Source of the DNA: Oscillatoria nigro-viridis PCC 7112
Lineage (GTDB): Bacteria > Cyanobacteriota > Cyanobacteriia > Cyanobacteriales > Microcoleaceae
Assembly: GCF_000317475.1 (NCBI RefSeq)
Contig: NC_019729.1
Location: 6,707,445-6,731,444, forward strand
DNA length: 24,000 nt
Direction of reading: 5' to 3'
Shown: positions 658-24,000 of the stretch, in pieces
Layout of the letters: each line of letters starts with the position of its first letter
Position numbering within the stretch: the stretch's first letter is position 1
Made by a program: the position numbers and the translations under genes
The notes under the pieces: model-generated
The model's input: the letters and a program-made list of their open reading frames with translations, nothing else
The model's database searches: none
Told to the model about the DNA's origin: nothing

Positions 658-3600
658 CTAAAACTGAGGTTTTGCCGCCACCCCCTCACAGAGACGCCGA
701 TCGCGATCGCTCACATTAGGATTAGTTCTCAGATAATCCCCCACCCAGTCGCAGCCCCTCACCAGCAAATCGTCAAGATCCAAATTCCACAAAATCACCC
801 GATTATCCCGGCCGGCAGAAGCCAGAACCTTCCCATCCGGGCTAAAACTCACGCTCATCACGCTATCCTTGTGACCCGTCAAAGTTTTCAGCAAAGTCCC
901 GCTGCGACTCCAAAGCTTCACCTTATGATCGTAACTGCCCGAAGCAACCAACAAACCGTCCGGGCTAAAAGCAACGCTAGTCACGCTGTCGCTAGAACCC
1001 TTCAGCAGCGTCGCCACCAAAGTCCCGTCCACCTTCCACAATTTCACCGAATTGTCGTAACCAGCCGAAGCCAGCATTTTGCCGTCAGGGCTAAAAGCAA
1101 CCCCCAACACAAAACTGTTGTGAGCTCCTTCAAAAGTTCTCAGCAAACGACCGTCCCGATTCCAGAGTTTGAGAGTACCATCATCGCTTGCAGAAGCCAG
1201 CATCGAGCCGTCGGGACTGAAAGTCACCCCAGTCACCCAGCCTGTGTGTCCCGTCAAAGTCTTAATCAGCCTGCCGTTTCTCGTCCAGAGTTTCACAGTC
1301 TTATCCTTGCTCGCCGAAGCGAGAATCTCGCTGTCGGGGCTAAAACTCACGCTCATCACGCTGTCGGCGTGGCCGTCGAGAGTGAACAGCACAGAAGGCG
1401 AACACGGGAATAGCGGAGCCGAAGGACAAGGGAGAATATTATTCATGCCATCTTCTGTCAAACTCCAGACTTTCACCGTTTTGTCGTAACTCCCAGAAGC
1501 AAGTAGCTTGCCGTCGGGGCTGAAACTGACGCTGGCGACTCTCTCAGTGTGTCCTTCCAAGGTTTCCAGCAAAACTCCCGTGCGGCTCCAGAGTTTGATA
1601 GTTTTGTCCGTAGAAGCAGAAGCCAGCCTTTGGCCGTCGGGGCTAAAAGTAACGCCTTGCACCCGGTTTTGGTGTCCGTCGAGGGTTTTGAGCGGCACGT
1701 CATCGAGTCGCCACAGCCTGATAGTTTTGTCAAAACTTGCCGAAGCCAAGGTTTTGCCTTCGGGGCTAAAACTCACCTGAGTAACTCGATCGGCGTGTCC
1801 CTCAAAAGTTCTCAGTAAGCGACTCTCTGATTTAATGTTGCTAGCATCGGTTGGGCGTTTGTCGCCAACACCAGCAAGATTCCAGAGTTTGACAGTCCCG
1901 TCTGCACTTCCAGAAGCAAGTGTTTGACCGTCGGGGGAGAAACTGACACCAAATACCCACTTGCTGTGTCCCCGCAAAGTTGTTAGCAGTTCAGCTTTTT
2001 TTGCTGGTGTTGAATTTTCTGTTTGTGGGTGTTTTAGTGCAGCGATGCTCCAGATTTTCACCGTTTTATCTTCACCCGCACTGGCGATCGTTTCACCATC
2101 GGGGGAGAAACTGACGGTGTAAATTTTCGAGGGTTGTCTGTTGTCGCTGTGCCATAAATTAGCGATTAACTTACCGTCGGAACTCCACAGTTTCACAGTA
2201 CCGTCATCGCTCGCCACAGCGATTATTTTGCCGTCGCGGCTGAAGCTGAGCCAATTTACGGGAGCAAATTGTTCGATCGTTCGCAGCAGCGTGCCGTCGG
2301 TTTTCCAAAGTTTGATAGTTTTGTCTGTAGATCCACTGGCGATCGTTTGACCGTCAGGGCTAAAAGCAACGCTGGTAACGCTATTAGTATGCCCTTTGAA
2401 AGTTACCAGCAAACTGCCGTCTGTTTGCCAAAGCTTGACAGTTTTATCTAAACTTGCCGAGGCTATGGTTTTGTTGTCCGGACTGAACGCCACACAGGAG
2501 ACACTGTTAGTGTGGTCTTTGAAAGTTGCCAGCAAACTGCCGTCGCGCCGCCAAAGTTTGACGGTTTTATCTACACTGGAGGAAGCTATTGTTTCGCCGT
2601 CGGGACTGAAGCTAAGACCCCAAACTACATCGCCGTGTCCTTCCAAGCGGTTGCGTTCTTTGACTCCATAAACTGCCTGCTGGAGGGCGGCAGAAATCAG
2701 AATTTCGGTGTCTTTGAGAGTATACATTTGTTGGGAGTGTTCGATGTGTTTCCACTTTTTACCAGCTCTCAAACTTTCCATCATGGCGTCAAATTTGTTG
2801 TTTGAGAAATAAAGTGCTTCAGAAGCGGCTGTCAGGGTACTGATTTCGGCTCGCTGAGTTTGAGCGACAGCTAGCTGTTTTTGACCCACAGCCCGCCACC
2901 AAAAATTTACGGCGGCGATGGTGGAACTGGTTAGCAGCATGACGCCGATCACTGCTAATCCCAGCAGTTGTTTGAGAAAAGTATTGGCTCGGTAGAGCTG
3001 TGCTTGACTCATCTTTTTGTCCGCTTCTGCTTTGTGCAGTCTGGCTTCTAAGCCGAATCTTTGGCGGATCGGCCGCACTAAATAGTCGTGTACCAATTGA
3101 TAGCGGTCTTCGGGCGCTTCCCGTAGCAGAAATAGCAAACCGTGACCAACTAAAATGTCTAAAATTAAGTCGAGGTTGTCGTTTTTCTTGGGTCGGCTTT
3201 CAGGGTCTTTTGCGAACTGTCGCTGTAGGGAAATTCTGCCGGTGCTGCCGATCGCCGATAATTCGGTTTCCCCAGCATCGGCTGGCTGCTGACCTGTAAC
3301 TAACGAGAGTTCGTGTTTGGTTTTTATCAGGCGAACGCCTCTTTCATCGGTCAGGGAAAACAAGATTTTCCAAGCTGCGTCTTCGTTAACGGGCCCGCAG
3401 TCAGAGATGACTCTTTCGAGCGATCGTTTCACTAATTCTGCTTTGGGATTGTCCCCCAATTGCTGGTATTGTGCTAGACTGGTAATCCCTTCTTCTTGCA
3501 GTTGCGCTCCTACTACCTGCAATTCGATCGGCCGCACTTCTTGCAGTTCGTCTGCTAAATCTTCTACAAAGGCATCGATCAGTGCCGGCTCTAAATAAAA

Positions 3601-6815: not shown

Positions 6816-8147
6816 CTATTTTGCTTCTGTGCGCTGCAGCCACTCCTTATATTTTCTGGTCTCTGCTAGGGCTGGATTAATCCCAAACCAACGACCTTCT
6901 TGATCGCGGTATTCAAAGACAAACATACTTCGCAACAAGATTTGAGACTCTTCTTCGCCGGTTACACTTTGTCGGTTGACGACTTGAAACAGCAATTCCC
7001 ATTCCAGGTCATTGATGGCTCCCAAAAGGTCATCTCGATATTCTTGAATGACGCTTTCGAGGCATTCGCGAGAGAAGGGAGGGTCTTCGTGCTGCAAACA
7101 GCTATACAAAAGCATCAGTAGATTGCGAACGTGACCGCCACTAATCCGACAAAGCCGGTCTAAAGTTTCGGGAGAGTCAAACACCTGGGAAATCAAATCG
7201 ATGCGTTGATGGGGAGCAACTGCGGGGAAAGCTCTAGCTAATACTAGCTGCCGCAGCAGTGCCATTCCTTCCATGTGGTCGTCGCCCGATCGCATTTGCA
7301 CGGGTACCATCGGCATCACCTTGGGCTTGACTCCAAATCGACTGGCGAGGCGGCCGAAGTCGTTGGAAAAAATCAAAGTCAGGGGAATCGTGTAGACGAC
7401 GTGGCAATTGAGTTTTTTCAACTGTTCGCCGCGGTCTAAAAACAAGTATTCTGGCTGGGTGCGTCCGCTGGGTTTGAGGGAGGCGTCGAGGCGATCGAGG
7501 TTGTCAACGATGACTGCGAGTCCTTTTTTTCCTTGCTGCTTGAGTTCGGCGTTAGCTTTGTTGAGGAGTTCTTCGTTGATGGACTGCAAGATGCTGTTGG
7601 TGCGGGGTTCGAGATATTGCCTGAGTTGCGATCGCAGTTTGGGAGAGTCTTTAGTTTTAGCCGTAACTTTAGCAATGCCTATAGATAACTCCGCTTCCGC
7701 TGACAAATCTATGGGAGTCTGCAAAAATTCTGCCACTTCTGCAAACAGATTGGTAAAATAGCTCGGTCTGAGTTTGATTTTAGTCGATTCCATAGTTTCG
7801 CTGACTTGGCGGGCAATGCTCAGCAAAATATCGCTGATGTCTACATCTCCCATGTCTAAGTCTTGGGAAGACTCAAAGTAGACGACGCAAAAACCCTCTT
7901 GCTCTAACTCAGCTTTCAGTCGAAACAATTCGGTAGATTTGCCACACCCGATATGTCCTGTAAATAGCTGACAGGTTGGCTGGTCAGGCGAGATGCGAGT
8001 AATGGTTCGCTGTAAAGATTCAATGATTTTGCCGCCACGCACGGAACCAAAATCAATGTAGTATTGATAATCTCCTGGGTCTCCCGCAACAAGGGTCTTG
8101 CTGGGGTTGCAGGCTTTATAGAATCTGTCTAATTCGAGTGCGATCAC
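6816..8147 (-). CDS. 443-aa P-loop ATPase (AAA+/STAND- or ORC/Cdc6-like; exact family not determinable by eye)
   Basis: GTG start at 8147, with no nearby in-frame ATG. Walker A GHIGCGKST (aa 64-72, nt 7932-7958). Walker B-like LAVIVDNLDRLD (aa ~210-221). Helical C-terminal half. Same strand as, and upstream of, the 1824-aa NTPase gene. Confidence 0.8.
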   Translation of the reverse strand: MIALELDRFYKACNPSKTLVAGDPGDYQYYIDFGSVRGGKIIESLQRTITRISPDQPTCQLFTGHIGCGKSTELFRLKAELEQEGFCVVYFESSQDLDMGDVDISDILLSIARQVSETMESTKIKLRPSYFTNLFAEVAEFLQTPIDLSAEAELSIGIAKVTAKTKDSPKLRSQLRQYLEPRTNSILQSINEELLNKANAELKQQGKKGLAVIVDNLDRLDASLKPSGRTQPEYLFLDRGEQLKKLNCHVVYTIPLTLIFSNDFGRLASRFGVKPKVMPMVPVQMRSGDDHMEGMALLRQLVLARAFPAVAPHQRIDLISQVFDSPETLDRLCRISGGHVRNLLMLLYSCLQHEDPPFSRECLESVIQEYRDDLLGAINDLEWELLFQVVNRQSVTGEEESQILLRSMFVFEYRDQEGRWFGINPALAETRKYKEWLQRTEAK

Positions 8148-11215: not shown

Positions 11216-12490
11216 ATGAAGCTTAATAATAGACACGGGTCTGACCAAGACAGTCCCCCTTCGGAAGAAGTAAAAAATTTTCCGGTGGCAGCAGATTCCG
11301 CCAATCCCTTTAGACGCAAGTCTGGTTATGTAAATGTAGATAGTATTGATATCGATCCTATGGTCAATCCCAAAGACATAATGCCCAGCAGTGCCGCCAA
11401 AATCAAAGTAATTGGCGTCGGCGGTGGTGGGGGCAACGCCGTTAACCGGATGATTGCTAGCGAGGTTTCTGGTGTCGAGTTTTGGTGCGTGAATACAGAT
11501 TCCCAAGCTCTGGTTCTCTCAAATGCTCCGAAACGCTTGCAAGTCGGACAGAAGTTGACGCGCGGTTTGGGCGCGGGGGGCAATCCGGCGATCGGCCAAA
11601 AGGCTGCGGAGGAATCTCGCGACGAGGTGGCTAATGCTCTGAATCATGCGGATTTGGTGTTTATCACGGCCGGCATGGGCGGCGGTACGGGCACGGGCGC
11701 GGCTCCGATCGTGGCTGAGGTGGCTAAGGAAATGGGCGCTTTGACTGTGGGCATAGTGACGCGGCCTTTTACGTTTGAGGGACGGCGGCGCACCAGCCAA
11801 GCTGAGGAAGGGATTGCGGCTTTGCAAACTCGGGTGGATACGCTGATCGTAATTCCTAACGACAAGCTGCTGTCTGTGATTTCCGAACAAATGCCGGTAC
11901 AAGAGGCTTTCCGAGTTGCTGACGATATCCTGCGCCAAGGGGTTCAGGGTATTTCTGACATTATTACTATTCCCGGTTTGGTGAACGTTGACTTTGCTGA
12001 CGTGCGGGCAGTAATGGCGGATGCGGGTTCGGCTTTGATGGGCATCGGCGTGGGTTCTGGCAAGTCGCGGGCTAGGGAGGCTGCGATGCAGGCTATTTCT
12101 TCGCCTCTGCTGGAAGCTTCGTCTATTGAGGGCGCTAGAGGTGTGGTGTTTAACATCACTGGCGGTACTGACATGACGCTGCACGAGGTGAATGCGGCTG
12201 CTGAGACGATTTACGAGGTTGTCGATCCGAATGCCAATATTATTTTTGGAGCGGTGATTGACGAGCGGCTTCAGGGCGAAATTAAGATTACTGTGATCGC
12301 TACTGGTTTTTCGGGAGAAGTTCCGTCGCCTCCGACTCCGGGGCGGACGCAAAATGTTAATGCTCCTTGGCGGGCTGCAACTGTGCCGGTGACTCCTGCT
12401 CAACAGACGCCCGATCCGAAAGCGAAACCGCCGCAGGATTTGGGATTGGATATTCCTGAGTTTTTACGCAACCGTCGCCCGCCAAGATGA
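11216..12490 (+). CDS. ftsZ: Cell division GTPase FtsZ
   Basis: [17 protein letters not shown], the tubulin signature [10 protein letters not shown], and NTDSQAL. ATG 11216 (MKLNNRHG...) gives a ~69-aa N-terminal extension containing an NPF motif, as in other cyanobacterial FtsZ. The track start at 11105 lies inside the tnpB element tail and is rejected. Confidence 0.93.
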
Positions 12491-12650
12491 TTTTAGATTT
12501 TAGATTTTAGATGGGGGATTTTGGGATTTGAGATTTTAGATTGGGGATTTGGCATTGCATCTCCAATCTCCCATCTAAAAAATCGAAAATATCGAGCATC
12601 TAAAATCTAAAATCGAAAAAATCTAAAATCTAAAATCTAAAATCTAAAAT
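12489..12650. repeat. STRR-like heptamer repeats in inverted orientation (GATTTTA x3 plus degenerate copies on the left; ATCTAAA x4 plus ~3 degenerate on the right)
   Basis: GATTTTA runs span 12489-12509 with degenerate copies to ~12545. ATCTAAA runs span 12598-12618 and 12621-12648. The two arrays are reverse complements and could form a long imperfect hairpin between the convergent ftsZ and MBL genes. The right array encodes the last 6 codons (ILDFRF*) of the MBL gene. Confidence 0.85.
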
Positions 12651-13478: not shown

Positions 13479-13686
13479 GGGAAGCACAGGCGGGACGCCC
13501 GTGCCACAGGGAAGCACAGGCGGGACGCCCGTGCCACAGGGAAGCACAGGCGGGACGCCCGTGCCACAGGGAAGCACAGGCGGGACGCCCGTGCCACAGG
13601 GAAGCACAGGCGGGACGCCCGTGCCACGGAAGCACAGGCGGGACGCCCGTGCCACAGGGAAGCACAGGCGGGACGCCCGTGCCACA
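13479..13686. repeat. Tandem array, 7 copies of a 30-bp GC-rich unit gggaagcacaggcgggacgcccgtgccaca (copy 5 is 28 bp)
   Basis: Read directly from the sequence. The array lies in the divergent spacer between the MBL start (13421) and the thiD start (13742). Each unit contains a small cggg-acg-cccg hairpin. It generates several artefactual repeat-encoded ORFs on both strands. Confidence 0.95.
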
Positions 13687-13741
13687 GATATGATTGGGAT
13701 GTGTGTGGGGAAAGTTGGCGTTTATCGGCGGTTGAAAGAAG

Positions 13742-14743: not shown

Positions 14744-15145
14744 TTAATTTCTTAATTTTTCAGGCGATAAAGCGATCGCCACCAAGTCTTCGATTTTCTT
14801 AATATTCGGATCGCCGGCCAAATAACCAATACCTCGGTGCAAGTGCAGGCGAAACTGTTTCGCTAGAGTTTCTTTTTCTGTGCCTAAATTGTCTTGGTGA
14901 CACCGCTGCTTCAGGGCCATTATCAAGATATCGGCCATGTCGCCGCCGAAGACATCCCAGCTTAATTCGACGTTGCTGTCGCTGGGAATTGGTACTGGCG
15001 ATGGGATGCTGGGCTCGGCGAGCGATCGGCAAAATCCCCACCTGCATAAAATATTCCACTGATCGATTTTGGTCGATCGTTTCAGTTTTGATAGTTGGTC
15101 TTTGCCTGTTTGGGAGAGGCGGATGCGATCGACTGGTGGTTCCAT
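14744..15145 (-). CDS. dndE: DNA sulfur modification protein DndE
   Basis: 133 aa, downstream of dndD on the same strand. The pattern RIRLSQTGKDQLSKLKRSTKIDQWNILCRWGFCRSL ... FRLHLHRGIGYL matches the DndE family as I recall it. Confidence 0.8.
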   Translation of the reverse strand: MEPPVDRIRLSQTGKDQLSKLKRSTKIDQWNILCRWGFCRSLAEPSIPSPVPIPSDSNVELSWDVFGGDMADILIMALKQRCHQDNLGTEKETLAKQFRLHLHRGIGYLAGDPNIKKIEDLVAIALSPEKLRN

Positions 15146-15411: not shown

Positions 15412-17409
15412 TTATTCCCAGAAGTAACCTTTTTCGACGGTGGTTTGGTGTTTGGCGGAGTCGTATTTGAGGAGGTAGCTGTGGGCGATCGCCTCTAATT
15501 CTTGGAGTTTTTCGTATTCTACTTTTCTAATTTCCGTGTCGGTAGAAAGCAGGATGACTTGGTGGCTGGCCGAGGGGAAATAGCGTTCGACTAGGTTGTT
15601 TCTGTGGGAGGAGTCGAGGCGGCCCAAGGGAGTGTCGATCGCCACTGGCAATTGTCTCCCGGATACTCTAGCCAATCCCCACAAAAAGGCGATCGCCAGC
15701 AATTGTTTTTCCCCGGCTGAAAGTCGGTGTTTGGGTACTGGTTTGCCTTCTGGATCGTAAATCGAGAGGCTAAATGTTTGAGTGTCGATCGCAACTCTGT
15801 GCACGAGGTCGGTTTTGTGCAACAGGTAGCGGAAACAGTCGGTAATTTCTATTTCGAGTTTGTTGAGTTTTTTGAGGGTGAGTTTTTCTTTAAAGAGTTT
15901 CAGGGTGGCTTGGGCTTTGGCGATCGAAGCGATGACGTGTTGGCTGTTTCTGATGGTGAGGTATTCGCTGCTGTAGTTTTCTAGTTCTTTTTGGTTTTTG
16001 GCTAATTCTCTCTCTAATTCATCGACGCGGCGGTTGGCTGATTCGCAGGCTGCGGCTGCAATAGCGACTGCTTTTTGGGCTTTCCTGACCTCTTCTTCTA
16101 GCTTTTCGTAGGCTTCGGGGGAAGCGGCGGCTGCGAGTTGTCTGTCTGTGAAGTCGATTTCTGCTTCGATGCTTTTGATTTCTTCTATTTGGTCGCGGGC
16201 TAGGATTTGCTGGGCTTTGATTTGGTAGCTAAGGAGATTTTCTAGTTGCTGGATGCTGTTGTTGTCGGCGTTCATCCAGGGCGGGGCGTCTGTTCCCGCT
16301 TGCTGTTCGAGTTCTTGGTTTTCTTGGCGGATGAAGTCTTGAATTTTATCTAGCTGTTGCGGGTTTAAAGAGATTTCGGCGATATAGTTGAGAAGGCGAT
16401 CGCTTCTTTGTTTGATAACATTTTTGGCAATCTTTGCTTGCTGCTGGCTGGCTTCTGTTTCTGCTTGAGTTTTTGCTTCACTTAGCAAGGGCGAAATAAG
16501 GGCTAGCGGTAGCGTATTTGATGCCAATTCCATCATGGCTTGACGGGTTTTTTCTGCCTGATTTCTGTAGTCGTTTAGCTGTCTGTCTAGCTGACTGCGA
16601 TCGGCGGCAATTTTCCCGCCTTCAGAAATAAACTTTTCTGATGCTTGTTTCTGATTTTTTTGAGCTTTATCAAATTCGTTTTTAAAGCTGGCTTGTTCTT
16701 GCTTAGCTGAGTCTATTTTATCAGTAATTTCCTTAAAAGTTTGTTCGATTTTCTCTAAAGCAGCCAAGTCTTTTTTGCCAGCAATTTCTTTCCGCTTGCG
16801 GCCGGCTAAAATTTCTAAATCGACGGCGAGGCGTTCTGCTAATTCTAAACCTAAAAGAGATTTAATCGCCCCGACGACAAACTCTGGCGGTGTTTCGAGT
16901 TCGGCAAGTTCTTTTACTTGTTCGCCGTCAAACAGAAATAGGTTGGATATTCCAACTGGCAAAAGGGTTTCGATGTATTCGTCCCAAGTGTTAGTAATTG
17001 CTTTGTCCGACCACCAATCGCTGACAATCTCGCTGTATATGAGAATGCTTAAGGTGTCTTTGATATCTAATTTTTTCCAGTATCTAACTATTTTAAATTG
17101 AGCTAATTTGTCATCTTGGACTTGTTCAAATGTTAGTTCGACGCGGGTATCTTCTAATGGGGGGGTGTGGCGGTTGACGCATTGATTGAGAAAGTCGCTG
17201 TAGCTTAAATTGCCTCTGGTAGAACATTGGGCGCGGCCACCGTAGAGGGCGAGGCGAATGCCGTCCATGAGGGTGGTTTTGCCGCCGCCATTCATGCCGC
17301 CAAATAAAATGACTGGGCAGGGATTTCCGTCTTTTTCGGGGCGGAGATTGATGGTTTGGGTGCCTGCATAGGGGCCGAAGTTTTTGAGGACGAGTTCGAG
17401 GAATTGCAT
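15412..17409 (-). CDS. dndD: DNA sulfur modification protein DndD (SMC/ABC-like ATPase)
   Basis: N-terminus MQFLELVLKNFGPYAG...ILFGGMNGGGKTTLMDGIRLALYG, a long coiled-coil middle, and C-terminus LSAGEKQLLAIAFLWGLARVSGRQLPVAIDTPLGRLDSSHR...ILLSTDTEI. Confidence 0.93.
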   Translation of the reverse strand: MQFLELVLKNFGPYAGTQTINLRPEKDGNPCPVILFGGMNGGGKTTLMDGIRLALYGGRAQCSTRGNLSYSDFLNQCVNRHTPPLEDTRVELTFEQVQDDKLAQFKIVRYWKKLDIKDTLSILIYSEIVSDWWSDKAITNTWDEYIETLLPVGISNLFLFDGEQVKELAELETPPEFVVGAIKSLLGLELAERLAVDLEILAGRKRKEIAGKKDLAALEKIEQTFKEITDKIDSAKQEQASFKNEFDKAQKNQKQASEKFISEGGKIAADRSQLDRQLNDYRNQAEKTRQAMMELASNTLPLALISPLLSEAKTQAETEASQQQAKIAKNVIKQRSDRLLNYIAEISLNPQQLDKIQDFIRQENQELEQQAGTDAPPWMNADNNSIQQLENLLSYQIKAQQILARDQIEEIKSIEAEIDFTDRQLAAAASPEAYEKLEEEVRKAQKAVAIAAAACESANRRVDELERELAKNQKELENYSSEYLTIRNSQHVIASIAKAQATLKLFKEKLTLKKLNKLEIEITDCFRYLLHKTDLVHRVAIDTQTFSLSIYDPEGKPVPKHRLSAGEKQLLAIAFLWGLARVSGRQLPVAIDTPLGRLDSSHRNNLVERYFPSASHQVILLSTDTEIRKVEYEKLQELEAIAHSYLLKYDSAKHQTTVEKGYFWE

Positions 17410-17444: not shown

Positions 17445-17964
17445 GTGCGATCGGTGTGTCTGACAGTCTGGGGTCGATCTGTGAGTCCCCTAGTACGACA
17501 GGGATTGAAATCCCTGTCTCATAGCTGAAGTCCTCTGAAAGAGGACTGAAGTTTGTGACTGTTGAATCGGGGTTTTTAGTCTGTCTGTGATTCCCCCATT
17601 ACGACAGGGATTGAAATCCCTGTCTCATAGCTGAAGTCCTCTTGAAGAGGACTGAAATTTGTGACTGTTGAATCGGGGTTTTTAGTCGGTTTTAACCGAC
17701 TTTTGCTTTCTCGACGGGGATTTCAATCCCCGGTGGATCTTGGGGTAAGGGCGATCGACCAATCGAGTCGATCGGGGTCGATCTGTGAGTCCCCTAGTAC
17801 GACAGGGATTGAAATCCCTGTCTCATAGCGAAAGTCCTCTTGAAGAGGACTGAAGTCGGCGATCGTTTGATTTGGCTTTTCAGTCGGTTAAAACCGACTT
17901 TCGCTATTAGACGGGGATTTCAATCCCCGGCGGACTTGTGGGTAAGCCCGATCGCCCCCAAAGT
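17445..17964. repeat. Cluster of ~3.5 tandem copies of a ~180-bp quasi-palindromic multi-hairpin element (REPIN-like)
   Basis: Unit structure: CAGGGATtgaaATCCCTG-tctcatagc-AGTCCTCTtgaAGAGGACT, a spacer, then AGTCGGTTttaaACCGACT-ttcgct-CGGGGATttcaATCCCCG-gcgga...gcccgatcgcccc. Copies lie at ~17445-17580 (left half only), 17581-17757 and 17765-17964. Confidence 0.85.
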
Positions 17965-18014: not shown

Positions 18015-18467
18015 TTAATTCTCTGCCGAATTCGGGTGCCACCGAGTAGGTGGATTGTCTCGATCCGTGATTTGTTCTAAATGCGAATTTGTGGTTTTTT
18101 GCAAGTGATGTTCTTTTTGATTTATCACATAAGCGACTGCTGAGTCTAGTTGTTTTTGTCCTAAAGAAAATACTCCGTATCCTTCTTGCCACGAAAATTT
18201 ATTGGGATTTTGCAAAGTTTGATTGAGATAACGGCTGCTGCTACCTTTAATATTTTTAACGAATTCAGCGATCGATTGTGTCGGAGGAATGGAAACTATT
18301 AAGTGGATGTGATTTTCTGTGCCGCCGATCGCATGAAGGATGCAATTGAGGGTGTCTGCTTTGCCGGTGATATAAGAGTAAAGTTCGGTTTCTTTTGCGG
18401 GAGATATGAGAGGCTGTCGCTCTTTTGTTGCCCAAACTAAATGATAGTACAGCAGCCACATTGCCAT
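18015..18467 (-). CDS. tnpA: IS200/IS605-type Y1 (HUH) transposase, RAYT-like (REP-associated), apparently intact
   Basis: 150 aa: MAMWLLYYHLVWATKERQPL..., HUH motif NHIHLIVS, GYGVFS, and C-terminal AYVINQKEHH (Tyr with Gln four residues later, as in IS608 TnpA Y127/Q131). Hairpin repeat clusters flank it on both sides and there is no tnpB next to it. Confidence 0.8.
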   Translation of the reverse strand: MAMWLLYYHLVWATKERQPLISPAKETELYSYITGKADTLNCILHAIGGTENHIHLIVSIPPTQSIAEFVKNIKGSSSRYLNQTLQNPNKFSWQEGYGVFSLGQKQLDSAVAYVINQKEHHLQKTTNSHLEQITDRDNPPTRWHPNSAEN

Positions 18468-18525: not shown

Positions 18526-18714
18526 GTGCGATCGGGGTCGATCGGGGAGTCCCGTAGTCCGACAGTCCGACAGGGATTGAAATCCCTGTCTCATAGCTGA
18601 AGTCCTCTTAAAGAGGACTGAAGTCTGCCATTGTTTGATTTTGCCCTTCAGTCGGTTTTAACCGACTTTCGCTTTCTCGACGGGGATTTCAATCCCCGGC
18701 GGATCTTCGGGTTA
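18526..18714. repeat. Fourth full copy of the REPIN-like multi-hairpin element, same orientation as the 17445-17964 cluster
   Basis: cagggattgaaatccctgtctcatagctgaagtcctcttaaagaggact...agtcggttttaaccgactttcgctttctcgacggggatttcaatccccggcgga. Confidence 0.85.
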
Positions 18715-18794
18715 GCCCGATCGCCCCAAAGCCCGATCGCCCCAAAGCCCGATCGCCCCAAAGCCCGATCGCCCCAAAGCCCGATCGCCCCAAA
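18715..18794. repeat. Perfect tandem repeat, 5 x 16 bp (gcccgatcgccccaaa)
   Basis: Read directly from the sequence. The 16-mer is the terminal motif of the REPIN-like unit (a single copy lies at 17946-17964). The array ends 28 bp from the dndC stop. Confidence 0.95.
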
Positions 18795-18822
18795 GTGCGA
18801 TCGCCCGATCGACATTATTGAC

Positions 18823-20508
18823 CTAATCTTTGCTATTTTTCTCTCCTACATCGGGAGTAGAAAATTTAATATCCGCCCAAGATAGCTGTCTGCTTTGATT
18901 GCTGCTGCTTTCGAGTTCTTCTTTAAGCTTGGCAATATCAACCGTCTCGTTTTTTGCGGAACTGTTGGTTTGGGCGATCGCATCTTTGAATTGCTGAATT
19001 TTTTCCGTCGGATTTGCTTTAATATCTTCCACCGCTTTTTTTAAATTGCGTTGATAGTGGGCGTTGCCAATCGCTTCTTCCTTCGATCGCGAACTGGTTT
19101 CAAAGCATTTGTCCAAATCGGCGTAAATGCCTGTACGGCGCGGCTTCGTGTAGTATTGGCGTTCTGTATCGAGGAGTTTTGCCATCAATTCGAGGTGCAT
19201 TTTGTCCTCGCTGCAAATCTCTTCGATCGCAGTCCATTCATCGCTACCTAGGAGTTTTCTTTCGGCGGCGGGACGGGAATCTTCAAAAGGTTCGCCCGTG
19301 ACTTCTTCGTAAATTCGGGGCAAAGAGTCGTCAAATTCGTGCTTTTCTTCCAGCCAAATTCGGCGGATTTCGCTAAGTTCTTCCGGGGTAATTAAGGTGA
19401 TGTCGCGCATTTCTAGGGGTGCGGTTTTGCGGATTTGGGTTTGTGCTTCCAAGACTCGTCTCAGCCAGTGTTCTCGCCAGTATTTGGTGTAAGGCCCTGG
19501 GATGGGTTCGACGGAGGTTGTGTCGTCGCCCATGTTGCGTTCAAACAGTTCTACTCTACCGTAAATGCGTCGGAAGTCTCTTTTTGGGCGATCGTCTTTT
19601 ATATCTAATTCGTTGCGAATATCGAGGAGAGGCTGCATCCATTCTTTTTCCTCATCATTCAAAATCATTGCCTGCATAGATTTATCTTGGTCTACCATTG
19701 TACAAACCCAGCAGCCAAAGCGAGAATCTCCACAGCTAGGCGTAGAAGTATCAACGACTAGAGGGCATTCGTTATCTGCTGTCGCACCGCGATACATGGT
19801 AAACAAGTCTTTATTGTCACCTCCCCAAGGGTTAGGATACTGCATTAGATAAAGCCAAACTTCATCATCCCGCCAGTCTTCCACAGGAGTATAAATTAGA
19901 GAGTTAATTAAACGAGAATTAGGACTCAATCGCTCGCGCACTCTACCTGCTTCATGTCTTTTCATTGTTGCAGCGCGTTTGCTGCTCTCAGCCTTTCGAG
20001 TGCCTAAAACAACAATAGTTTCACCGTGAACCCTAACCATTTCACGGATAAAATGGTTAACAGGTTGAATTTTCATACGATCGGTACACCAGCGAAATCC
20101 ATTTCGAGGTGCTGGATAGCCTTTCCCCATTAAGCATACCCAGAATGTTTCTTGAAAGGAAGGATGAAGCAGATGAGGTTCGACTGGCATTTTTTGCTGG
20201 TTAGCTGCTAGCTTAACATATTTAATGCAATTGCGAACCCAGGTAGAAATTATCGGATTTTCAACCAGCGTATCTGTTGTAATTAAATGAATTGTTTTTG
20301 TGCGTTTTTCCAGTGGGAGTGCTGCGATTGCATACCATATTAACTGCAATACTGCACTCGAATCTTTTCCAAAAGATACGCCTAAAACCCAGGGAATTTC
20401 ATCGCTACAATACAAATCCTGAATTTCTTGAGTTAACTTTTCTACATCATCCACTAACTCAGTAACGCTGCGCGGTGGGAATAGTGGCATCTGCTGAGCT
20501 TGTGTCAT
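18823..20508 (-). CDS. dndC: DNA phosphorothioation sulfurtransferase DndC (PAPS-reductase-like ATP pyrophosphatase, Fe-S)
   Basis: ATG at 20508 with AGGAG ~9 nt upstream. PP-loop-like VLGVSFGKDSS, the cysteine motif SCGDSRFGCWVCT, and a length of 561 aa. Confidence 0.93.
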   Translation of the reverse strand: MTQAQQMPLFPPRSVTELVDDVEKLTQEIQDLYCSDEIPWVLGVSFGKDSSAVLQLIWYAIAALPLEKRTKTIHLITTDTLVENPIISTWVRNCIKYVKLAANQQKMPVEPHLLHPSFQETFWVCLMGKGYPAPRNGFRWCTDRMKIQPVNHFIREMVRVHGETIVVLGTRKAESSKRAATMKRHEAGRVRERLSPNSRLINSLIYTPVEDWRDDEVWLYLMQYPNPWGGDNKDLFTMYRGATADNECPLVVDTSTPSCGDSRFGCWVCTMVDQDKSMQAMILNDEEKEWMQPLLDIRNELDIKDDRPKRDFRRIYGRVELFERNMGDDTTSVEPIPGPYTKYWREHWLRRVLEAQTQIRKTAPLEMRDITLITPEELSEIRRIWLEEKHEFDDSLPRIYEEVTGEPFEDSRPAAERKLLGSDEWTAIEEICSEDKMHLELMAKLLDTERQYYTKPRRTGIYADLDKCFETSSRSKEEAIGNAHYQRNLKKAVEDIKANPTEKIQQFKDAIAQTNSSAKNETVDIAKLKEELESSSNQSRQLSWADIKFSTPDVGEKNSKD

Positions 20509-20680
20509 TTTATTAATCTCCTCTTGCTAAGCATCAACACTTGTGCTGTGAATTCCACCCTGTGACGCAACATAATTGTTTGCCCTTGATCGTTGAGCTT
20601 TGAGCGTAATGGTCTGCCTAACTACTATACCCCGTGATGAGTTATAATTAAAGATTAACCTTTAAGTTAATTTACAAGCT
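20509..20680. promoter_or_regulatory. Divergent control region between dndC and the extra DGQHR gene (candidate -10 and operator-like inverted repeat)
   Basis: TATAAT at 20643-20648, 33 nt before the ATG at 20681. Inverted repeat ATTAAC-N6-GTTAAT at 20654-20671. Direct TTGAGC repeats at ~20593-20605. The region is AT-rich, so chance matches are likely. Confidence 0.3.
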
Positions 20681-21856
20681 ATGCCTAATGACAACTCGAA
20701 TCAGCCAGAACTCAACCAGCGACTAGATGAATTCCTTGAGCCGTACTTCGCCAGATACCACCGTCAGAAGTGCTATCCGGGCTTAATCTTTCAGCATGGA
20801 AAGCGAAAAATGGTACAATTCAACGTGCCTGCTGATGACTTACCTACTCTCCTTCAAGCAAAACCTTCTACAAATAACGAGCCTGAGTCTGGTAAAAACC
20901 GTCCAGAGATTAAGGGCCATGCTGAGGAAGTCAAGGAGTACATTCTCAAGCGCGTTAGAAAAGACCAACCCTGGATTGTGGGTACACTCACTGCAAATGT
21001 CGATCCAGAGAAGATTGAAATTATCGAACTAAGTCGGGGCATTTGCTTAGTAGTTATCCCTCGTGGCGTTAAGTTAGATATTACTGACGGACAGCACCGT
21101 AAGCGAGCGATTCACGAATTGATTGAGAGTGCTAACGGCGAGTTAATTGGAGATAATGATTTCCCAATTACGCTAGTTTTAGAAGGCAACTTAAATCAGT
21201 GTCAAAGAGACTTTAGAGATATGGCGCAAACAAAAGCGCTGGATAAATCGTTACTCTTGTCCTTTGGCGAAATGGAAGGTCGAATAGGTATTTGCAAACA
21301 GTTAATTGAACAAGTGCCAATTTTTAAGGGCAAGACAGAGAAAGTTAAAGGTTCTCCATCATCTAAAGAAAAGCGAATATATACAATGAATTATGTAGTA
21401 AAGGCTGTTAGTTGCGCTTTTGCTAACGATCCGAATAACGAGCTGAAAGATTGCGATTTATCAGAATGCTCGGCAGCTATAATTAGTGGTCTCACTCAAT
21501 TTTTTACAGAATGCAGTCTAACTCAATACATTTATGAGACAGAGGCTCATGATTTGACAGTTAATGAAATTGATAACTTTAAAGAAAGTTGTTTATTGGG
21601 CAGGAGCGTGGGAATAGAAATATTAGGAAAGTTACTCTACTGCACTTATGATGCTGATAGCTATTGCTTCGATCCAGAACAAGTATCAGAACTTGCTCAA
21701 CTTGATTGGTCAAGAAAAAGCCACCTTTGGGAAGGAAATGTGGTTTTGTCGAACAATAATCCCAATAATCTTGTTCGTAACTATAGAATAACAGCTAGTG
21801 TTAATGCTGTAAAAATGGCAGTAAATCAAGTAAAAGCCCATCTAGAATGGATTTAA
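20681..21856 (+). CDS. DGQHR-domain (ParB/DndB-like) protein, divergent paralog inserted between dndB and dndC
   Basis: 391 aa. LDITDGQHRKRAIHELIE, with the DGQHR codons at 21086-21100. There is no IRGIQAGREYY-type DndB N-terminus. My hand GC counts on five 60-nt lines average ~39%, against ~50-55% for the neighbouring dndB. Confidence 0.8.
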   Translation: MPNDNSNQPELNQRLDEFLEPYFARYHRQKCYPGLIFQHGKRKMVQFNVPADDLPTLLQAKPSTNNEPESGKNRPEIKGHAEEVKEYILKRVRKDQPWIVGTLTANVDPEKIEIIELSRGICLVVIPRGVKLDITDGQHRKRAIHELIESANGELIGDNDFPITLVLEGNLNQCQRDFRDMAQTKALDKSLLLSFGEMEGRIGICKQLIEQVPIFKGKTEKVKGSPSSKEKRIYTMNYVVKAVSCAFANDPNNELKDCDLSECSAAIISGLTQFFTECSLTQYIYETEAHDLTVNEIDNFKESCLLGRSVGIEILGKLLYCTYDADSYCFDPEQVSELAQLDWSRKSHLWEGNVVLSNNNPNNLVRNYRITASVNAVKMAVNQVKAHLEWI

Positions 21857-21862
21857 CCCATA

Positions 21863-23002
21863 TTATGCGCCTTCCTTGTGGCACGGGCGTCCCGCCTGTG
21901 CTGTATCTGCGGTTTCCAAACCCAACCGATTTTTTAAATAATCAGTCATCCAACTAACACTCGCCCTCGACTTAGAAATCCCCCCTTTCAACAAAATCCC
22001 ATTCTCCCAATCAGGATTAGAAATCGACCAATCAACCTGCTGCAAAAGGCTCAAACGTTCCTCCCAACTCTCAGGAAAAACCGATCGCAAAGCCGCCCCA
22101 ACTTCCCCCAAACTCTCAAGCACAACACTGTGACAGTGTACGCAATCCCGGCGCATTTCCCCCGCCGCAACTTGCTTGTGCAGAACTAATTGCCAATCTG
22201 GAATAAAATTGCTAACCGCATTCCAATAACTAACCGCCAGTTGTATTTTTTGAGCGAGTTCTTCCTCTTTCTGTTCTTTTTTGGTGCGAGAACCAGAGGG
22301 TTGTGCCTGTTTGCTGCCGTGAATATTAGACAGCAAAGCCACGATCGCACGATCGATCGCACTCAGCGTAAACAATTTGTGCGATCGCCCGTTCAAACTC
22401 CCCCTCTCCATCTCAGTCAAACACCGGAAAACCTCAACCTGCTTAACAACCGCCTTCACCACAAAAGCCCGATCGTCCCGGTGGTTGTAAAGTAGACTTA
22501 GCGACGCCTCCAAAGGAACTTGAAAACCATTCAAATCAGCAAACATCTGCTGCGATTTTTCCAACCCAATATCGAGAAACAAAATCAGCGCCACCGTCTC
22601 ATATCCCAACTGCGGATTTTCCCTCAAAGCCATCTCAAAAGCCGCCCGGCGATGCTGTCCGTCATTAATAGTAAACTTAGCATCCATCGGCACTCGCAAG
22701 CGACCTATTTTCCGTTCTTCTGCCTCATTTCCCACAGCTTCAAAAGTAATATCCGCATCAATCGAAGCAGCAATTGCCCCACAAGTATAATTTGTAGGAT
22801 TCTTGACAAAATAATCAGCAATTTCGGGAATCCTAGCTTTGTTAAGCGCGCGTTTTGCCCGCATAGACGGCGGCAAATCTTCAGATTCAAAGGGAAACAA
22901 TTTCGGCAAAAAACGCACCGGACACATCGACACGTAATATTCGCGGCCCGCTTGAATTCCCCGGATAACCGGCAAAATGTATTCAAAAGAAGGAGTAGAC
23001 AT
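21863..23002 (-). CDS. dndB: DNA sulfur modification protein DndB (canonical DGQHR protein)
   Basis: FEYILPVIRGIQAGREYYVSMCPVRFLPKLF, LNKARIPEIADY, FTINDGQHRRAAFEMAL (DGQHR codons at 22649-22663), SQQMFADLN. I prefer ATG 23002 (MSTPSFEY...). The track start at 23062 is a TTG, and an ATG also exists at 23056. Confidence 0.88.
   Translation of the reverse strand: MSTPSFEYILPVIRGIQAGREYYVSMCPVRFLPKLFPFESEDLPPSMRAKRALNKARIPEIADYFVKNPTNYTCGAIAASIDADITFEAVGNEAEERKIGRLRVPMDAKFTINDGQHRRAAFEMALRENPQLGYETVALILFLDIGLEKSQQMFADLNGFQVPLEASLSLLYNHRDDRAFVVKAVVKQVEVFRCLTEMERGSLNGRSHKLFTLSAIDRAIVALLSNIHGSKQAQPSGSRTKKEQKEEELAQKIQLAVSYWNAVSNFIPDWQLVLHKQVAAGEMRRDCVHCHSVVLESLGEVGAALRSVFPESWEERLSLLQQVDWSISNPDWENGILLKGGISKSRASVSWMTDYLKNRLGLETADTAQAGRPCHKEGA
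21877..21902 (-). repeat. Solo inverted copy (26/30 nt) of the 30-bp unit that forms the 13479-13686 array
   Basis: tgtggcacgggcgtcccgcctgtgct is the reverse complement of agcacaggcgggacgcccgtgccaca. It lies inside the last ~13 codons of dndB (…AQAGRPCHKEGA*) and ~20 bp from the stop of the convergent DGQHR gene. Confidence 0.9.
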
Positions 23003-23253: not shown

Positions 23254-23398
23254 GTCAGACGGTGGCGCGTGACACCCAGACGCATCTGCATCAAGCCCGA
23301 TCGCCCCTCAGCTATTGACAAATAAAACATTAAATGATATGTAAGGTTGAACTTATTAGTATTTTAAGTATTTCACAAAAATTTTTTAAAAACAAGAG

Positions 23399-23460: not shown

Positions 23461-24000
23461 ATGAACGCCAATCCAGCGGATGACCTCGCTAGCAAAATTT
23501 TAGAAAAAGAAAATAGCGACAGACAGGAAATCGCACTTTTATTAGATAATTATTTAGGAAAGGACAATCGCATTTTCGTCCAAAAAACCCAGATGGGAAA
23601 CAGCGAAGCATACATCGGTTCAGTCACCCTAGAATGGTTAGACTCTCGCGTCCGTTTCGCCTCCCAGATGCCGCTTTTCCGCCAAAAATTCGACCTCCAA
23701 ACCAACAACATCGTCCGCGACGACGAAACCATTGACGAAATTATCCAGCGTCCCTTAGATTGGTCGCGCCAAGCCGCCTTAACTCAATATTTAGCAGCCC
23801 GAAAATCGCACAAATTCCCCGCAGTTTTAGTAGTAGTCAGTCCCCCGTGGGTAGATAATCCTTTAGCCGAGGAATGGGATAAAAATGGCGTAGCAACTAA
23901 ATCGGCGGCTGAATTTACATCCTTTGATAAAAACGAGAACTTAGGGCTGTTGAATGTCTCTCAAAAAGTCTCAATTTTTGCCTTAGACGGCCAGCATCGG
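23461..24000 (+). CDS. Third DGQHR-domain protein, N-terminal 180 codons (runs off the right edge)
   Basis: Absent from the ORF track because it has no stop. The ATG at 23461 is the first start after an in-frame TAG (23449-23451). My translation: MNANPADDLASKILEKENSDRQEIALLLDNYLGKDNRIFVQKTQMGNSEAYIGSVTLEWLDSRVRFASQMPLFRQKF...IQRPLDWSRQAALTQYLAARKSHKFPAVLVVVSPPWV...VSIFALDGQHR. The DGQHR codons are the last 15 nt of the window (23986-24000). Confidence 0.75.
   Translation, partial: MNANPADDLASKILEKENSDRQEIALLLDNYLGKDNRIFVQKTQMGNSEAYIGSVTLEWLDSRVRFASQMPLFRQKFDLQTNNIVRDDETIDEIIQRPLDWSRQAALTQYLAARKSHKFPAVLVVVSPPWVDNPLAEEWDKNGVATKSAAEFTSFDKNENLGLLNVSQKVSIFALDGQHR

What the first reader, a model, noticed from the sequence alone, without database searches (positions are those of the whole stretch)
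20509..21862. Extra, oppositely oriented DGQHR (ParB-like) gene wedged between dndB and dndC
Described dnd loci are dndBCDE operons, with dndA or iscS supplying sulfur. Here canonical dndB (21863-23002, minus) is cut off from dndC (minus) by a 391-aa plus-strand gene. That gene has the DGQHR motif (21086-21100) but lacks the DndB-type N-terminus (IRGIQAGREYY) and has a different C-terminal half. It shares a 172-bp divergent control region with dndC. Its stop lies only 6 bp from the convergent dndB stop. DndB is known as a DNA-binding negative regulator of dnd transcription. A second ParB-fold protein placed exactly at the dndC promoter could be an alternative or competing regulator, or a PT-sensing component. 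I do not know of a characterised role for such a paralog.
Basis: partly seen in the sequence, partly recalled or inferred. Interest (0 to 1): 0.72.

Follow-up and report, generated by a model that had tools for sequence, protein, structure and literature searches.

The report
Diverged DndB-family partner of cyanobacterial dndC
The gene is real: it is a diverged, uncharacterised DndB-family (ParB-like) protein that sits head-to-head with the DNA-sulfur-modification gene dndC in most cyanobacterial loci sampled, so it is the usual partner there and the textbook dndB next to it is the rarer extra.

Summary
A 391-aa plus-strand ORF (20681-21856) with DGQHR at 21086-21100 lies between dndC and a canonical dndB. 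It is 172 bp from the dndC start and 6 bp from the dndB stop.

It is not a wedge peculiar to this window. It belongs to a discrete, strongly conserved cyanobacterial subfamily ("A") of Pfam DndB:
- The Pfam match is full length (291 bits), and the N-terminus is diverged, not missing.
- It fails the DndB equivalog model (65 vs 328 bits) and is 23% identical to the neighbouring dndB.
- Public databases already label it "DndB".

Of 58 informative A loci, 51 show dndC within about 2 kb on the opposite strand. Canonical dndB is present in only 6 of 32 loci with good flanks.

The window also holds the start of a third DGQHR gene (23461 onward). Relatives continue into a Pbe-like CxC-ATPase module.

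Among Microcoleus strains, dndC+A behaves as an exchangeable cassette. Some strains carry an SBD-HNH gene in its place.

The most likely role, inferred and not shown, is a DndB-like NTP-dependent DNA-binding controller dedicated to dndC. Interest is moderate: a new variant of a known kind.

The parts
20681..21856 (+). Gene A: 391-aa member of a cyanobacterial subfamily of the DndB family (DGQHR, ParB/Srx fold)
   Evidence: ORF. PF14072 291 bits, full length. TIGR03187 69.8 bits (cutoff 58.85). TIGR03233 65.5 bits (cutoff 328). Homologues at 64-97% identity among the top 120 hits, every named one from a cyanobacterium. AF2 pLDDT 89. dN/dS 0.15-0.20.
21086..21100 (+). DGQHR motif (residues 136-140)
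   Evidence: D136, G137, Q138, H139 and R140 are invariant in the 16-sequence subfamily alignment. D, G, H and R remain invariant in the 65-sequence family alignment.
20509..20680 (.). 172-bp divergent spacer between dndC and A. It contains a -10-like TATAAT (20642-20647), a direct repeat (20557-20577 and 20629-20649) and a short inverted repeat (20648-20665).
   Evidence: Sequence. Repeats. A 'GTTATAAT/GATTATGAT'-type -10 box about 35-45 nt before the A start recurs in distant orthologous spacers. No operator-like motif is shared across lineages.
18823..20508 (-). dndC (PT sulfurtransferase), divergent partner of A
   Evidence: TIGR03183 697 bits. dndC lies within about 2 kb of A on the opposite strand in 51 of 58 informative loci.
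21863..23002 (-). Canonical dndB (B), convergent with A
   Evidence: TIGR03233 409 bits, above the 328 cutoff. 23% identical to A. Present in only 6 of 32 A loci with at least 2.5 kb on both flanks.
23461..24000 (+). 5' part (first 180 codons) of a third DGQHR gene (C, about 530 aa in relatives), cut by the window end
   Evidence: tblastn: 92% identity to residues 1-180 of the L005 protein. Relatives score TIGR03187 155-189 bits and PF14072 46-56 bits. Similarity to A or B is limited to the DGQHR region.
23382..23393 (.). Palindrome TTTTTTAAAAAC (consensus GTTTTTAAAAAC) next to the promoter-like TTGACA (starting 23399) of gene C
   Evidence: The same palindrome lies within 400 nt upstream of C (typically about 80-110 nt) in 22 of 31 loci, whatever the gene order. 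It is also present in loci that lack A.
15412..17409 (-). dndD
   Evidence: TIGR03185 647 bits.
14744..15145 (-). dndE
   Evidence: PADLOC DndE 59 bits. PF08870 is annotated on the orthologues.
18015..18467 (-). IS200/Y1 transposase gene inserted between dndC and dndD
   Evidence: PF01797 104 bits and NF033573 89.5 bits. Present in some relatives (L003, L097) and replaced by a PDDEXK_3 gene in others (L092, L095).

Best explanation
Gene A encodes the cyanobacterial version of a DndB-type protein. It has a ParB/Srx-fold N-terminal domain with an intact DGQHR nucleotide-binding site, followed by the DndB helical domain. It is dedicated to dndC.

By analogy with characterised DndB, I infer the following. 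DndB is an ATP-modulated repressor that binds palindromes in the dnd promoter and limits PT density (He 2015, PMC4507180; Xia 2019, as cited in PMC10853773). I propose that A binds DNA in an NTP-dependent way and sets the level or activity of DndC, most simply by controlling the divergent A|dndC promoter region.

In most cyanobacteria A does this job alone or together with the third paralog C, and canonical dndB is absent. In this window the A|dndC module sits next to a canonical dndB and gene C, so dndCDE is expressed from the A-side spacer and not from the dndB promoter.

What is shown: family membership, fold, conservation, linkage to dndC, and cassette exchange.
What is inferred: DNA binding, NTP dependence and repression.
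For: - Full-length PF14072 match (291 bits) and a DGQHR-domain hit above cutoff. DGQHR is invariant across the subfamily.
- The AF2 model is confident (pLDDT 89). It matches ParB/Srx-type and 'DNA-sulfur modification-associated' viral models (E 5e-10, TMq 0.53) and the ParB-like PadC (probability 0.90).
- Of 58 informative non-identical loci: 30 have dndC directly divergent, 5 have one gene between, and 16 have dndC|C>A>.
- A stays beside dndC where no dndDE was detected in the flanks, and where no CxC module (a4/D2) was detected (L041-44 for both; L011 and L013 for the CxC module). Downstream of A in L041 are SDR, methyltransferase and NRPS genes.
- Canonical dndB is absent from 26 of 32 A loci with good flanks. 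Microcoleus loci that lack A retain dndB (L092-94). This pattern is expected if A and B have overlapping functions.
- dndC+A is exchanged as a unit. L021 has flanks at 96.5-99.5% DNA identity but dndC+A at 79.4%, with the break in the A/B spacer. L092 has flanks at 95-96.5%, dndC at 83%, and A replaced.
- Purifying selection: dN/dS 0.15-0.20.
Against: - No operator-like dyad is conserved in dndC|A spacers. Only promoter- and RBS-like words are enriched.
- In 16 or more loci gene C, not A, abuts dndC, so A is not always at the dndC promoter.
- A and B coexist here, so they are not simply redundant.
- The Cys that matters for Salmonella DndB (C29) is Val49 in A.
- Mirror-tree correlations do not single out DndC as A's partner (A-DndC Pearson 0.62 against A-DndD 0.63).
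- The transcription-factor role of DndB itself has been questioned in favour of NTPase, nuclease or effector roles (PMC10853773).
- There is no experimental datum for this subfamily.
Confidence: 0.45

Rival explanations
1. A is a non-transcriptional partner of DndC in the modification reaction. It would act as an NTP-gated ParB-like DNA clamp or loader, or as an NTPase, that limits or targets where DndCDE inserts sulfur. This would explain why it is inherited and exchanged together with its own dndC allele.
For: - dndC+A is exchanged as a cassette between near-identical flanks.
- A alleles inside Microcoleus differ as much as between orders (64-69% against 60-70%), while B, DndD and DndE stay at 85-98%.
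- No operator was found in the spacer.
- The Aravind-lab reappraisal proposes NTPase or direct limiting roles for DndB (PMC10853773).
- A DndB-like ParB-fold protein binds ATP and GTP in vitro (bioRxiv 10.1101/2025.10.10.680097).
Against: - Adjacency alone would produce co-inheritance.
- Mirror-tree correlation between A and DndC is no higher than with DndD.
Confidence: 0.22
2. A is a PT-sensing or defence-side component. It would work with the third DGQHR protein C and the adjacent Pbe-like module (dnd_restrict_1 helicase, CxC ABC ATPase, Uma2 nucleases, DndE-like dnd_assoc_4), much as the ParB-like domains of SspE and DndI read PT.
For: - In 27 of 71 loci A ends, typically within 15-43 bp, at the convergent dnd_assoc_4 gene.
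- In the C>A> loci with enough flank, the CxC ATPase and TIGR04095 helicase usually follow.
- The slot upstream of dndC is filled in sister strains by an SBD-HNH gene, which carries a sulfur-binding (PT-reading) domain.
- SspE and DndI sense PT with ParB-like domains (PMC11662687).
- SspE appears among the weak PDB fold matches.
Against: - A has no nuclease or other effector domain. Pfam finds only DndB.
- A persists next to dndC where no CxC module lies within 10 kb (L011, L013, L041-44).
- In the window lineage A is separated from the CxC module by B and C.
- A is closer to DndB than to DUF262 proteins.
Confidence: 0.2
3. A is a redundant, drifting duplicate of dndB with no role of its own in this genome.
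For: Both are PF14072 members and lie side by side. Some Microcoleus strains do without A.
Against: - Only 23% identity to B.
- It forms a discrete, old subfamily: only 15 clusters at E<1e-30, followed by a drop to about 26% identity.
- dN/dS 0.15-0.20.
- The 391-aa length and the motifs are conserved across orders.
- It is usually present without B.
Confidence: 0.05

Closest known systems
DndB (DptB) of Salmonella enterica Cerro 87, E. coli B7A and Streptomyces lividans (TIGR03233)
   Same: Same Pfam family across the full length, with the DGQHR motif and a ParB/Srx-type fold. Encoded beside dndC. Its presence is largely complementary to canonical dndB in cyanobacterial loci.
   Different: - 23% identity; 65 bits against the 328-bit equivalog cutoff.
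- Transcribed divergently from dndC, not as the first gene of dndBCDE.
- The conserved Cys (C29) is replaced by Val.
- The 'FADLN' motif reads 'FRDM-AQT'.
- It has a 29-aa N-terminal extension.
- No TACGN10CGTA-like operator was found.
DNA phosphorothioation-associated DGQHR protein 1 (TIGR04172), the extra DGQHR gene noted beside dnd genes in Serratia odorifera (ProPhylo, PMC3226654)
   Same: It is a precedent for a second DGQHR paralog travelling with dnd genes in addition to DndB.
   Different: A gives no hit to TIGR04172 at E<=0.01. The taxa differ (gammaproteobacteria against cyanobacteria), as does the position in the locus.
SspE and DndI (DUF262 ParB-like NTPase plus HNH/DUF1524 nuclease; PT-sensing effectors)
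   Same: Same ParB-like superfamily N-terminal domain, encoded next to PT-modification genes. They are plausible models for PT sensing.
   Different: A has no nuclease domain and is half their size. It is a DndB-family member, not DUF262. Only weak fold matches were found.
PbeABCD / CxC-ABC-ATPase systems (Xiong 2019, PMC6459918; reannotated in PMC10853773)
   Same: Relatives of this locus continue into a PbeC-type CxC ATPase (PADLOC PbeC 1107 bits, with a CIC motif), a PbeD-size DndE-like protein (TIGR04062) and an SF2 helicase (TIGR04095).
   Different: A itself is not a Pbe protein. The cyanobacterial helicase matched only helicase domains in the Pfam scan. Uma2 nucleases and two DGQHR proteins accompany the module instead.
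DpdB (DGQHR protein of the 7-deazaguanine Dpd system, NF041060)
   Same: A DGQHR/DndB-family protein serving a DNA-modification system.
   Different: A gives no hit at E<=0.01. No dpd genes are present.

Membership tests
Pfam PF14072 (DndB, DNA-sulfur modification-associated) | Whole-protein score above the gathering threshold, with coverage of the model | tested here: met
   291.2 bits against a cutoff of 29.1. Residues 32-390 align to model positions 1-337 of 338.
TIGR03187 DGQHR domain | Score above the curated cutoff, with the DGQHR motif present | tested here: met
   69.8 bits against 58.85. DGQHR at residues 136-140 is invariant in the subfamily.
DndB equivalog (TIGR03233) | Score at or above the curated equivalog cutoff (328 bits) | tested here: not met
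   65.5 bits. The neighbouring gene B scores 409.4.
DndB equivalog (TIGR03233) | First gene of a co-directional dndBCDE operon | tested here: not met
   A is on the opposite strand to dndC here. It is also opposite in all loci where dndC was found beside it.
DndB equivalog (TIGR03233) | Conserved N-terminal Cys (C29 in Salmonella DndB; He 2015, PMC4507180) | tested here: not met
   In the 65-sequence alignment, B Cys27 aligns with A Val49.
DndB equivalog (TIGR03233) | Binds palindromic operators in the dnd promoter and represses dndCDE; ATP releases it | not testable with these tools
   No conserved dyad was found in dndC|A spacers. This is weak negative evidence only.
ParB/Srx superfamily fold | N-terminal alpha/beta domain of ParB/sulfiredoxin type carrying the arginine-containing motif | tested here: met
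   AF2 model pLDDT 89.2. Foldseek hits include the ParB-like PadC 6ryk (probability 0.90, TMt 0.57). They also include viral ParB/Srx, GmrSD-N and DNA-sulfur-modification-associated models (E down to 5e-10).
TIGR04172 (phosphorothioation-associated DGQHR protein 1) | HMM score at or above 450 bits | tested here: not met
   No hit at E<=0.01 for A.
DpdB (NF041060) | HMM score at or above 300 bits, in a dpd gene context | tested here: not met
   No hit at E<=0.01 for A. No dpd genes are in the window.
SspE/DndI-type PT sensors | ParB-like (DUF262) NTPase fused to a C-terminal HNH/DUF1524 nuclease | tested here: not met
   Pfam finds only PF14072. The C-terminal half of the model is helical and DndB-like.

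The most novel reading that the evidence does not exclude
The divergent dndC|A pair is a self-contained, horizontally exchangeable 'allele cassette' of cyanobacterial PT systems. In this reading A is an NTP-gated ParB-like DNA clamp matched to its own DndC allele. It would license or restrict where and how much DndC modifies, and possibly read PT itself. Sister strains fill the same slot with a PT-reading SBD-HNH nuclease. Together with paralogs B and C and the Pbe-like CxC module, this would make a three-DGQHR control layer that has not been described for any PT system.
Probability: 0.15. Interest if true: 0.7.

Novelty: new variant of a known kind. Interest (0 to 1): 0.45.

Why it matters
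PT systems are known mainly from proteobacteria, Streptomyces and haloarchaea. In those, a single DndB tunes modification, and DndFGH, Pbe or Ssp modules restrict.

Cyanobacteria have been proposed as the cradle of dnd (PMC8569181). Earlier work reported that their dndB homologues were 'not clear' (PMC2442094), or lumped everything together as dndBCDE (PMC8546630).

This analysis shows that the usual cyanobacterial partner of dndC is a separate DndB-family subfamily. Up to three DGQHR paralogs coexist in one locus, and dndC plus its partner are swapped between strains. Two consequences follow:
- It gives concrete candidates for how PT density is controlled in these organisms.
- It warns against annotating all PF14072 proteins as the same 'DndB'.

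Tried and rejected
- PDB sequence searches with A, with B and with a 65-sequence profile found nothing usable.
- I looked for an operator in the dndC|A spacer.
  - The window has a direct repeat and a short inverted repeat.
  - Across 19 non-redundant spacers only promoter- and RBS-like words are enriched.
  - A recurring ACATAA half-site (7 of 19) was not significant.
- The palindrome GTTTTTAAAAAC tracks gene C, not A, and is present in loci that lack A. I rejected it as an A operator.
- Mirror-tree correlations of A with DndC, DndD, DndE, C, a4 and D2 did not single out a partner.
- The dN/dS estimate for dndC was unreliable, probably because of an indel, and I discarded it.
- No relatives were found in viral contigs.
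- No Rfam family lies in the window.
- The DndC-anchored sampling reached only Microcoleus and Kamptonema (75-93% identity). How often cyanobacterial dndC lacks A outside that group is unknown.
- One 47%-identical A-like copy (L077-79) is an orphan flanked by transposase fragments.
Full report
**1. Observation**

The window is from a Microcoleus-like filamentous cyanobacterium. The closest genome locus is Microcoleus vaginatus DQ-U2, at 96% protein identity for the gene in question.

- It runs 20681-21856 on the plus strand, with an ATG start, 391 aa and a TAA stop.
- To its left is dndC (18823-20508, minus strand; TIGR03183 697 bits).
- To its right is a canonical dndB (21863-23002, minus strand; TIGR03233 409 bits against a cutoff of 328).
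- The divergent spacer is 172 bp. The convergent stops are 6 bp apart.
- DGQHR is residues 136-140, which is 21086-21100.
- dndD (15412-17409) and dndE (14744-15145) follow dndC on the minus strand. An IS200/Y1 transposase gene (18015-18467) separates dndC from dndD.

One descriptive claim is wrong. The protein does not lack the DndB N-terminus or have a different C-terminal half.
- The Pfam DndB model aligns end to end: model positions 1-337 of 338 to residues 32-390, at 291 bits.
- In a 65-sequence family alignment, residues 30-60 of the new protein align with residues 8-36 of dndB. "KCYPGLIFQHGKRKMVQFNVPADDLPTL" lies opposite "YILPVIRGIQAGREYYVSMCPVRFLPKL".
- The AlphaFold model has the corresponding beta-hairpin at residues 30-50.
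- The N-terminus is therefore diverged, with a ~29-aa extension in front of it.

**2. What the protein is**

I call it A, the canonical dndB B, and the third paralog (section 3) C.

- A is 23% identical to B over 330 residues.
- A passes the generic DGQHR-domain model (69.8 against 58.85 bits).
- A fails the DndB equivalog model (65.5 against 328 bits) and gives no hit to TIGR04172 or DpdB.
- PADLOC knows it only as a weak DndB match (70.7 bits).

A search of 5.8 billion proteins found 544 relatives. The best 120 are almost all 388-406 aa long and 64-97% identical, and every one that a source names comes from a cyanobacterium. Where a source names them they are almost always called 'DNA sulfur modification protein DndB'.

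In a library of 50%-identity cluster representatives, only 15 clusters score below E 1e-30. Similarity then drops to about 26% identity, where a broad set of ~420-aa proteins begins. All 40 of those I scanned are also sub-threshold DndB/DGQHR proteins. A is thus a discrete, old subfamily inside PF14072.

Within the subfamily, DGQHR and a series of other motifs are invariant. dN/dS against three Microcoleus orthologues is 0.15-0.20.

An AlphaFold2 model built from 65 sequences is confident: pLDDT 89.2, pTM 0.74. It has an N-terminal alpha/beta domain and a C-terminal helical domain.
- No solved structure matches by sequence.
- Foldseek against the PDB gives only weak hits, led by the ParB-like PadC (probability 0.90), with SspE further down.
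- Foldseek against predicted viral structures gives clear matches, with E down to 5e-10. The targets are 'DNA-sulfur modification-associated', ParB/sulfiredoxin and GmrSD-N proteins.
- The ParB/Srx fold assignment is therefore supported.

**3. Surroundings in the window**

From 23461 to the window end, the plus strand encodes the first 180 residues of a ~530-aa protein (C). It is 92% identical to the orthologue in a Microcoleus chromosome.

C scores 155-189 bits on TIGR03187. It resembles A and B only around DGQHR.

Upstream of C, the B|C spacer carries a promoter-like TTGACA-N17-TATTTT, with TTGACA starting at 23399. Next to it is the palindrome TTTTTTAAAAAC at 23382-23393.

**4. Neighbourhood survey**

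I collected loci in three ways:
- 10 genome loci
- 77 metagenome loci anchored on A
- 14 loci by exact-protein look-ups (4 anchored on A; 6 anchored on DndC)

I located all dnd-related genes by tblastn.

Of 71 non-identical A loci, 58 are informative upstream of A:

| Layout upstream of A | Loci |
|---|---|
| dndC directly divergent from A (as here) | 30 |
| One gene between dndC and A (an HNH_2 gene in L013) | 5 |
| dndC< \| C> A> | 16 |
| C> A>, contig ends before dndC would be seen | 3 |
| Canonical dndB divergent from A (dndC< dndB< \| A> in L069) | 3 |
| Orphan copy among transposase fragments | 1 |

Among the 32 loci with at least 2.5 kb on both sides, the counts are:

| Gene | Present in |
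|---|---|
| dndC | 31 |
| C | 23 |
| dnd_assoc_4 | 20 |
| Canonical dndB | 6 |

A remains next to dndC in two informative situations:
- where no dndDE was detected in the available flanks (L041-44);
- where no Pbe-like module lies within 10 kb (L011, L013, L041-44).

Downstream of A in L041 are SDR, methyltransferase and NRPS genes.

So across cyanobacteria A is the constant partner of dndC, and canonical dndB is the variable element. This fits an early remark that dndB homologues were 'not clear' in cyanobacteria (PMC2442094). It also fits the 'various configurations' noted later (PMC8569181).

**5. The wider island**

Downstream of A (or of C), most loci carry a second module on the opposite strand:
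- a 155-aa TIGR04062 'dnd_assoc_4' protein (199 bits);
- one or two Uma2 nucleases;
- a ~688-aa ABC ATPase that matches PADLOC PbeC at 1107 bits and has a CIC motif at the middle of its coiled coil;
- in Nostocales-type loci, a ~490-aa SF2 helicase matching TIGR04095 'DNA phosphorothioation system restriction enzyme' at 673 bits against a cutoff of 600.

According to the reannotation in PMC10853773, PbeC is a CxC ABC ATPase, PbeD is its DndE cognate, and PbeA is an HKD-nuclease-helicase. The cyanobacterial module is therefore a Pbe-like CxC system.

The close relatives of this window (L003, L005, L015, L022) have dnd_assoc_4 and the CxC ATPase a few kb beyond C. The window's own genome probably has them too, but that lies outside the data.

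**6. Polymorphism within Microcoleus**

Look-ups anchored on DndC show that the slot between dndB and dndC is polymorphic at one chromosomal site. In every case the site has the same thiD, lactamase_B, ftsZ and IS605 neighbours as the window.

| Loci | Layout | Notes |
|---|---|---|
| L092/L093, L094 | C< \| B> SBD-HNH> dndC>, all co-directional | No A. L092 continues PDDEXK_3> dndD> dndE>; L094 has no dndDE nearby. SBD-HNH is PF26340 + PF13391. |
| L095 | A divergent from dndC | A is a 64%-identical allele. B is reduced to a 21-aa remnant. |
| L097 | Window layout | An extra 203-aa gene lies between A and B. |

At the DNA level:
- L092 matches the window at 95-96.5% on both flanks, but at 83% in dndC, and not at all over A.
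- L021 matches at 99.5% (dndD 5' end) and 96.5% (dndB), but at 79.4% across dndC+A. The break falls in the A/B spacer.

So dndC plus its upstream partner is exchanged as a cassette between conserved flanks. The window looks like a hybrid of the canonical dndB-first operon and the cyanobacterial dndC|A module. In that hybrid, A cuts dndB off from dndCDE, and dndC must be expressed from the 172-bp spacer.

**7. Regulatory signals**

A -10-like box lies about 35-45 nt before the A start in distant orthologues. It is of the GTTATAAT or GATTATGAT type, and the window copy is TATAAT at 20642-20647.

The window spacer has two repeat features:
- a 21-nt direct repeat, at 20557-20577 and 20629-20649, in which each copy ends in a -10-like hexamer;
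- a short inverted repeat, at 20648-20665.

Across 19 non-redundant dndC|A spacers, only promoter- and RBS-like words are enriched. I found no counterpart of the TACGN10CGTA operators of Salmonella DndB (PMC4507180).

By contrast, a 12-bp palindrome, GTTTTTAAAAAC, lies within 400 nt upstream of gene C, typically about 80-110 nt before its start. It is often present twice. I found it in 22 of 31 loci, whether C follows dndC, dndB or A. It is also present in loci without A. It is therefore a C-linked operator candidate, not evidence for A.

**8. Mechanism**

*Shown:* A is a conserved, selected, full-length DndB-family ParB/Srx-fold protein with an intact DGQHR site. It is linked to dndC more tightly than to any other gene and is exchanged with it.

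*Inferred:* like DndB, A binds DNA in an NTP-modulated way and controls how much DndC modifies. DndB is an ATP-modulated autorepressor whose loss raises dndCDE transcription 15-fold and PT 2-fold (PMC4507180; mechanism as summarised in PMC10853773).

Confidence in each reading:

| Reading | Confidence |
|---|---|
| A is a DndB-like controller dedicated to dndC | 0.45 |
| A is a direct, non-transcriptional DndC partner | 0.22 |
| A is a PT-sensing or defence-side component working with C and the CxC module | 0.20 |
| A is a drifting duplicate | 0.05 |

- The lack of an operator, the A+B coexistence here, and the loci where C abuts dndC count against a simple version of it.
- Mirror-tree correlations did not discriminate between partners.

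**9. Comparison with what is known, and novelty**

A is a member of Pfam DndB and of the DGQHR domain family. It is not a member of the DndB equivalog, of TIGR04172 or of DpdB, and it is not an SspE/DndI-type sensor.

Extra DGQHR paralogs beside dnd genes have a precedent in gammaproteobacteria (PMC3226654). Duplicated DndB/D/E modules and CxC systems have been catalogued (PMC10853773).

I found no paper that separates this cyanobacterial subfamily, its divergent pairing with dndC, the three-paralog layout or the cassette exchange. Public annotation simply calls it DndB.

I rate it a new variant of a known kind. Interest is moderate (0.45): useful for PT biology and for annotation, but not a new principle, and its function is still inferred.

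Noticed in passing
window 23461-24000 (+): Start of a third DGQHR/DndB-family gene (C, about 530 aa in relatives) that runs off the window end. It is conserved in 23 of 32 well-flanked A loci and resembles A and B only around DGQHR.
   Followed up: partly
window 23382-23393; relatives e.g. L029 8002 and 8065, L051 1300 and 1364: The palindrome GTTTTTAAAAAC lies typically about 80-110 nt upstream of gene C and is often present twice. It was found in 22 of 31 loci regardless of gene order, and next to a -35-like TTGACA in the window. It is a candidate operator; the binding factor is unknown. It is also present in loci that lack A.
   Followed up: partly
L092 7010-7978, L094 7015-7983 (Microcoleus); L013 8873-9820: Sister Microcoleus strains carry an SBD-HNH gene (ScoMcrA-type sulfur-binding domain plus HNH_2) between dndB and dndC, in the place A occupies here. 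Crocosphaera has an HNH_2 gene between dndC and A.
   Followed up: partly
L010 13263-16761, L056 11093-15827, L064 11198-15108 and others: A Pbe-like module lies next to cyanobacterial dnd loci. It comprises dnd_assoc_4 (TIGR04062), Uma2 nucleases, a CxC ABC ATPase (PADLOC PbeC, CIC motif) and a TIGR04095 SF2 helicase, which matched only helicase domains in the Pfam scan.
   Followed up: partly
window 17478-17687, 18015-18467 and 18714-18806: Three features lie between dndD and dndC: an IS200/Y1 transposase gene, a 106-bp x2 tandem repeat with small hairpin-like units, and a 16-bp x5.8 repeat (AGCCCGATCGCCCCAA) just past the dndC stop. Relatives have a PDDEXK_3 gene there instead.
   Followed up: no
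window 13479-13687: A 30-bp tandem repeat with 7 copies at 97% match (GGGAAGCACAGGCGGGACGCCCGTGCCACA), between the lactamase_B-like gene and the thiD-like kinase gene.
   Followed up: no
window 12489-12650: Heptamer-based AT-rich tandem repeats (GATTTTA and ATCTAAA, in opposite orientations) directly after ftsZ.
   Followed up: no
window 658-6132 (-) and 6816-8147 (-): A 1824-aa protein with an N-terminal NTPase-like region and many WD40 repeats lies next to a 443-aa P-loop ATPase. The ATPase gives weak PADLOC hits (PDC-S20, 21 bits). This may be an unrelated conflict or signalling pair.
   Followed up: no
L029 9824-12341, L030 7331-9848: Two A-type genes in tandem (61% and 57% identical to the window protein) after C, in one metagenomic lineage.
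   Followed up: no
L097 3979-4590; also about 710-bp gaps in L015 and L021: An extra 203-aa gene with no Pfam hit lies between A and dndB in some Microcoleus strains. In the window the two stops are only 6 bp apart.
   Followed up: no
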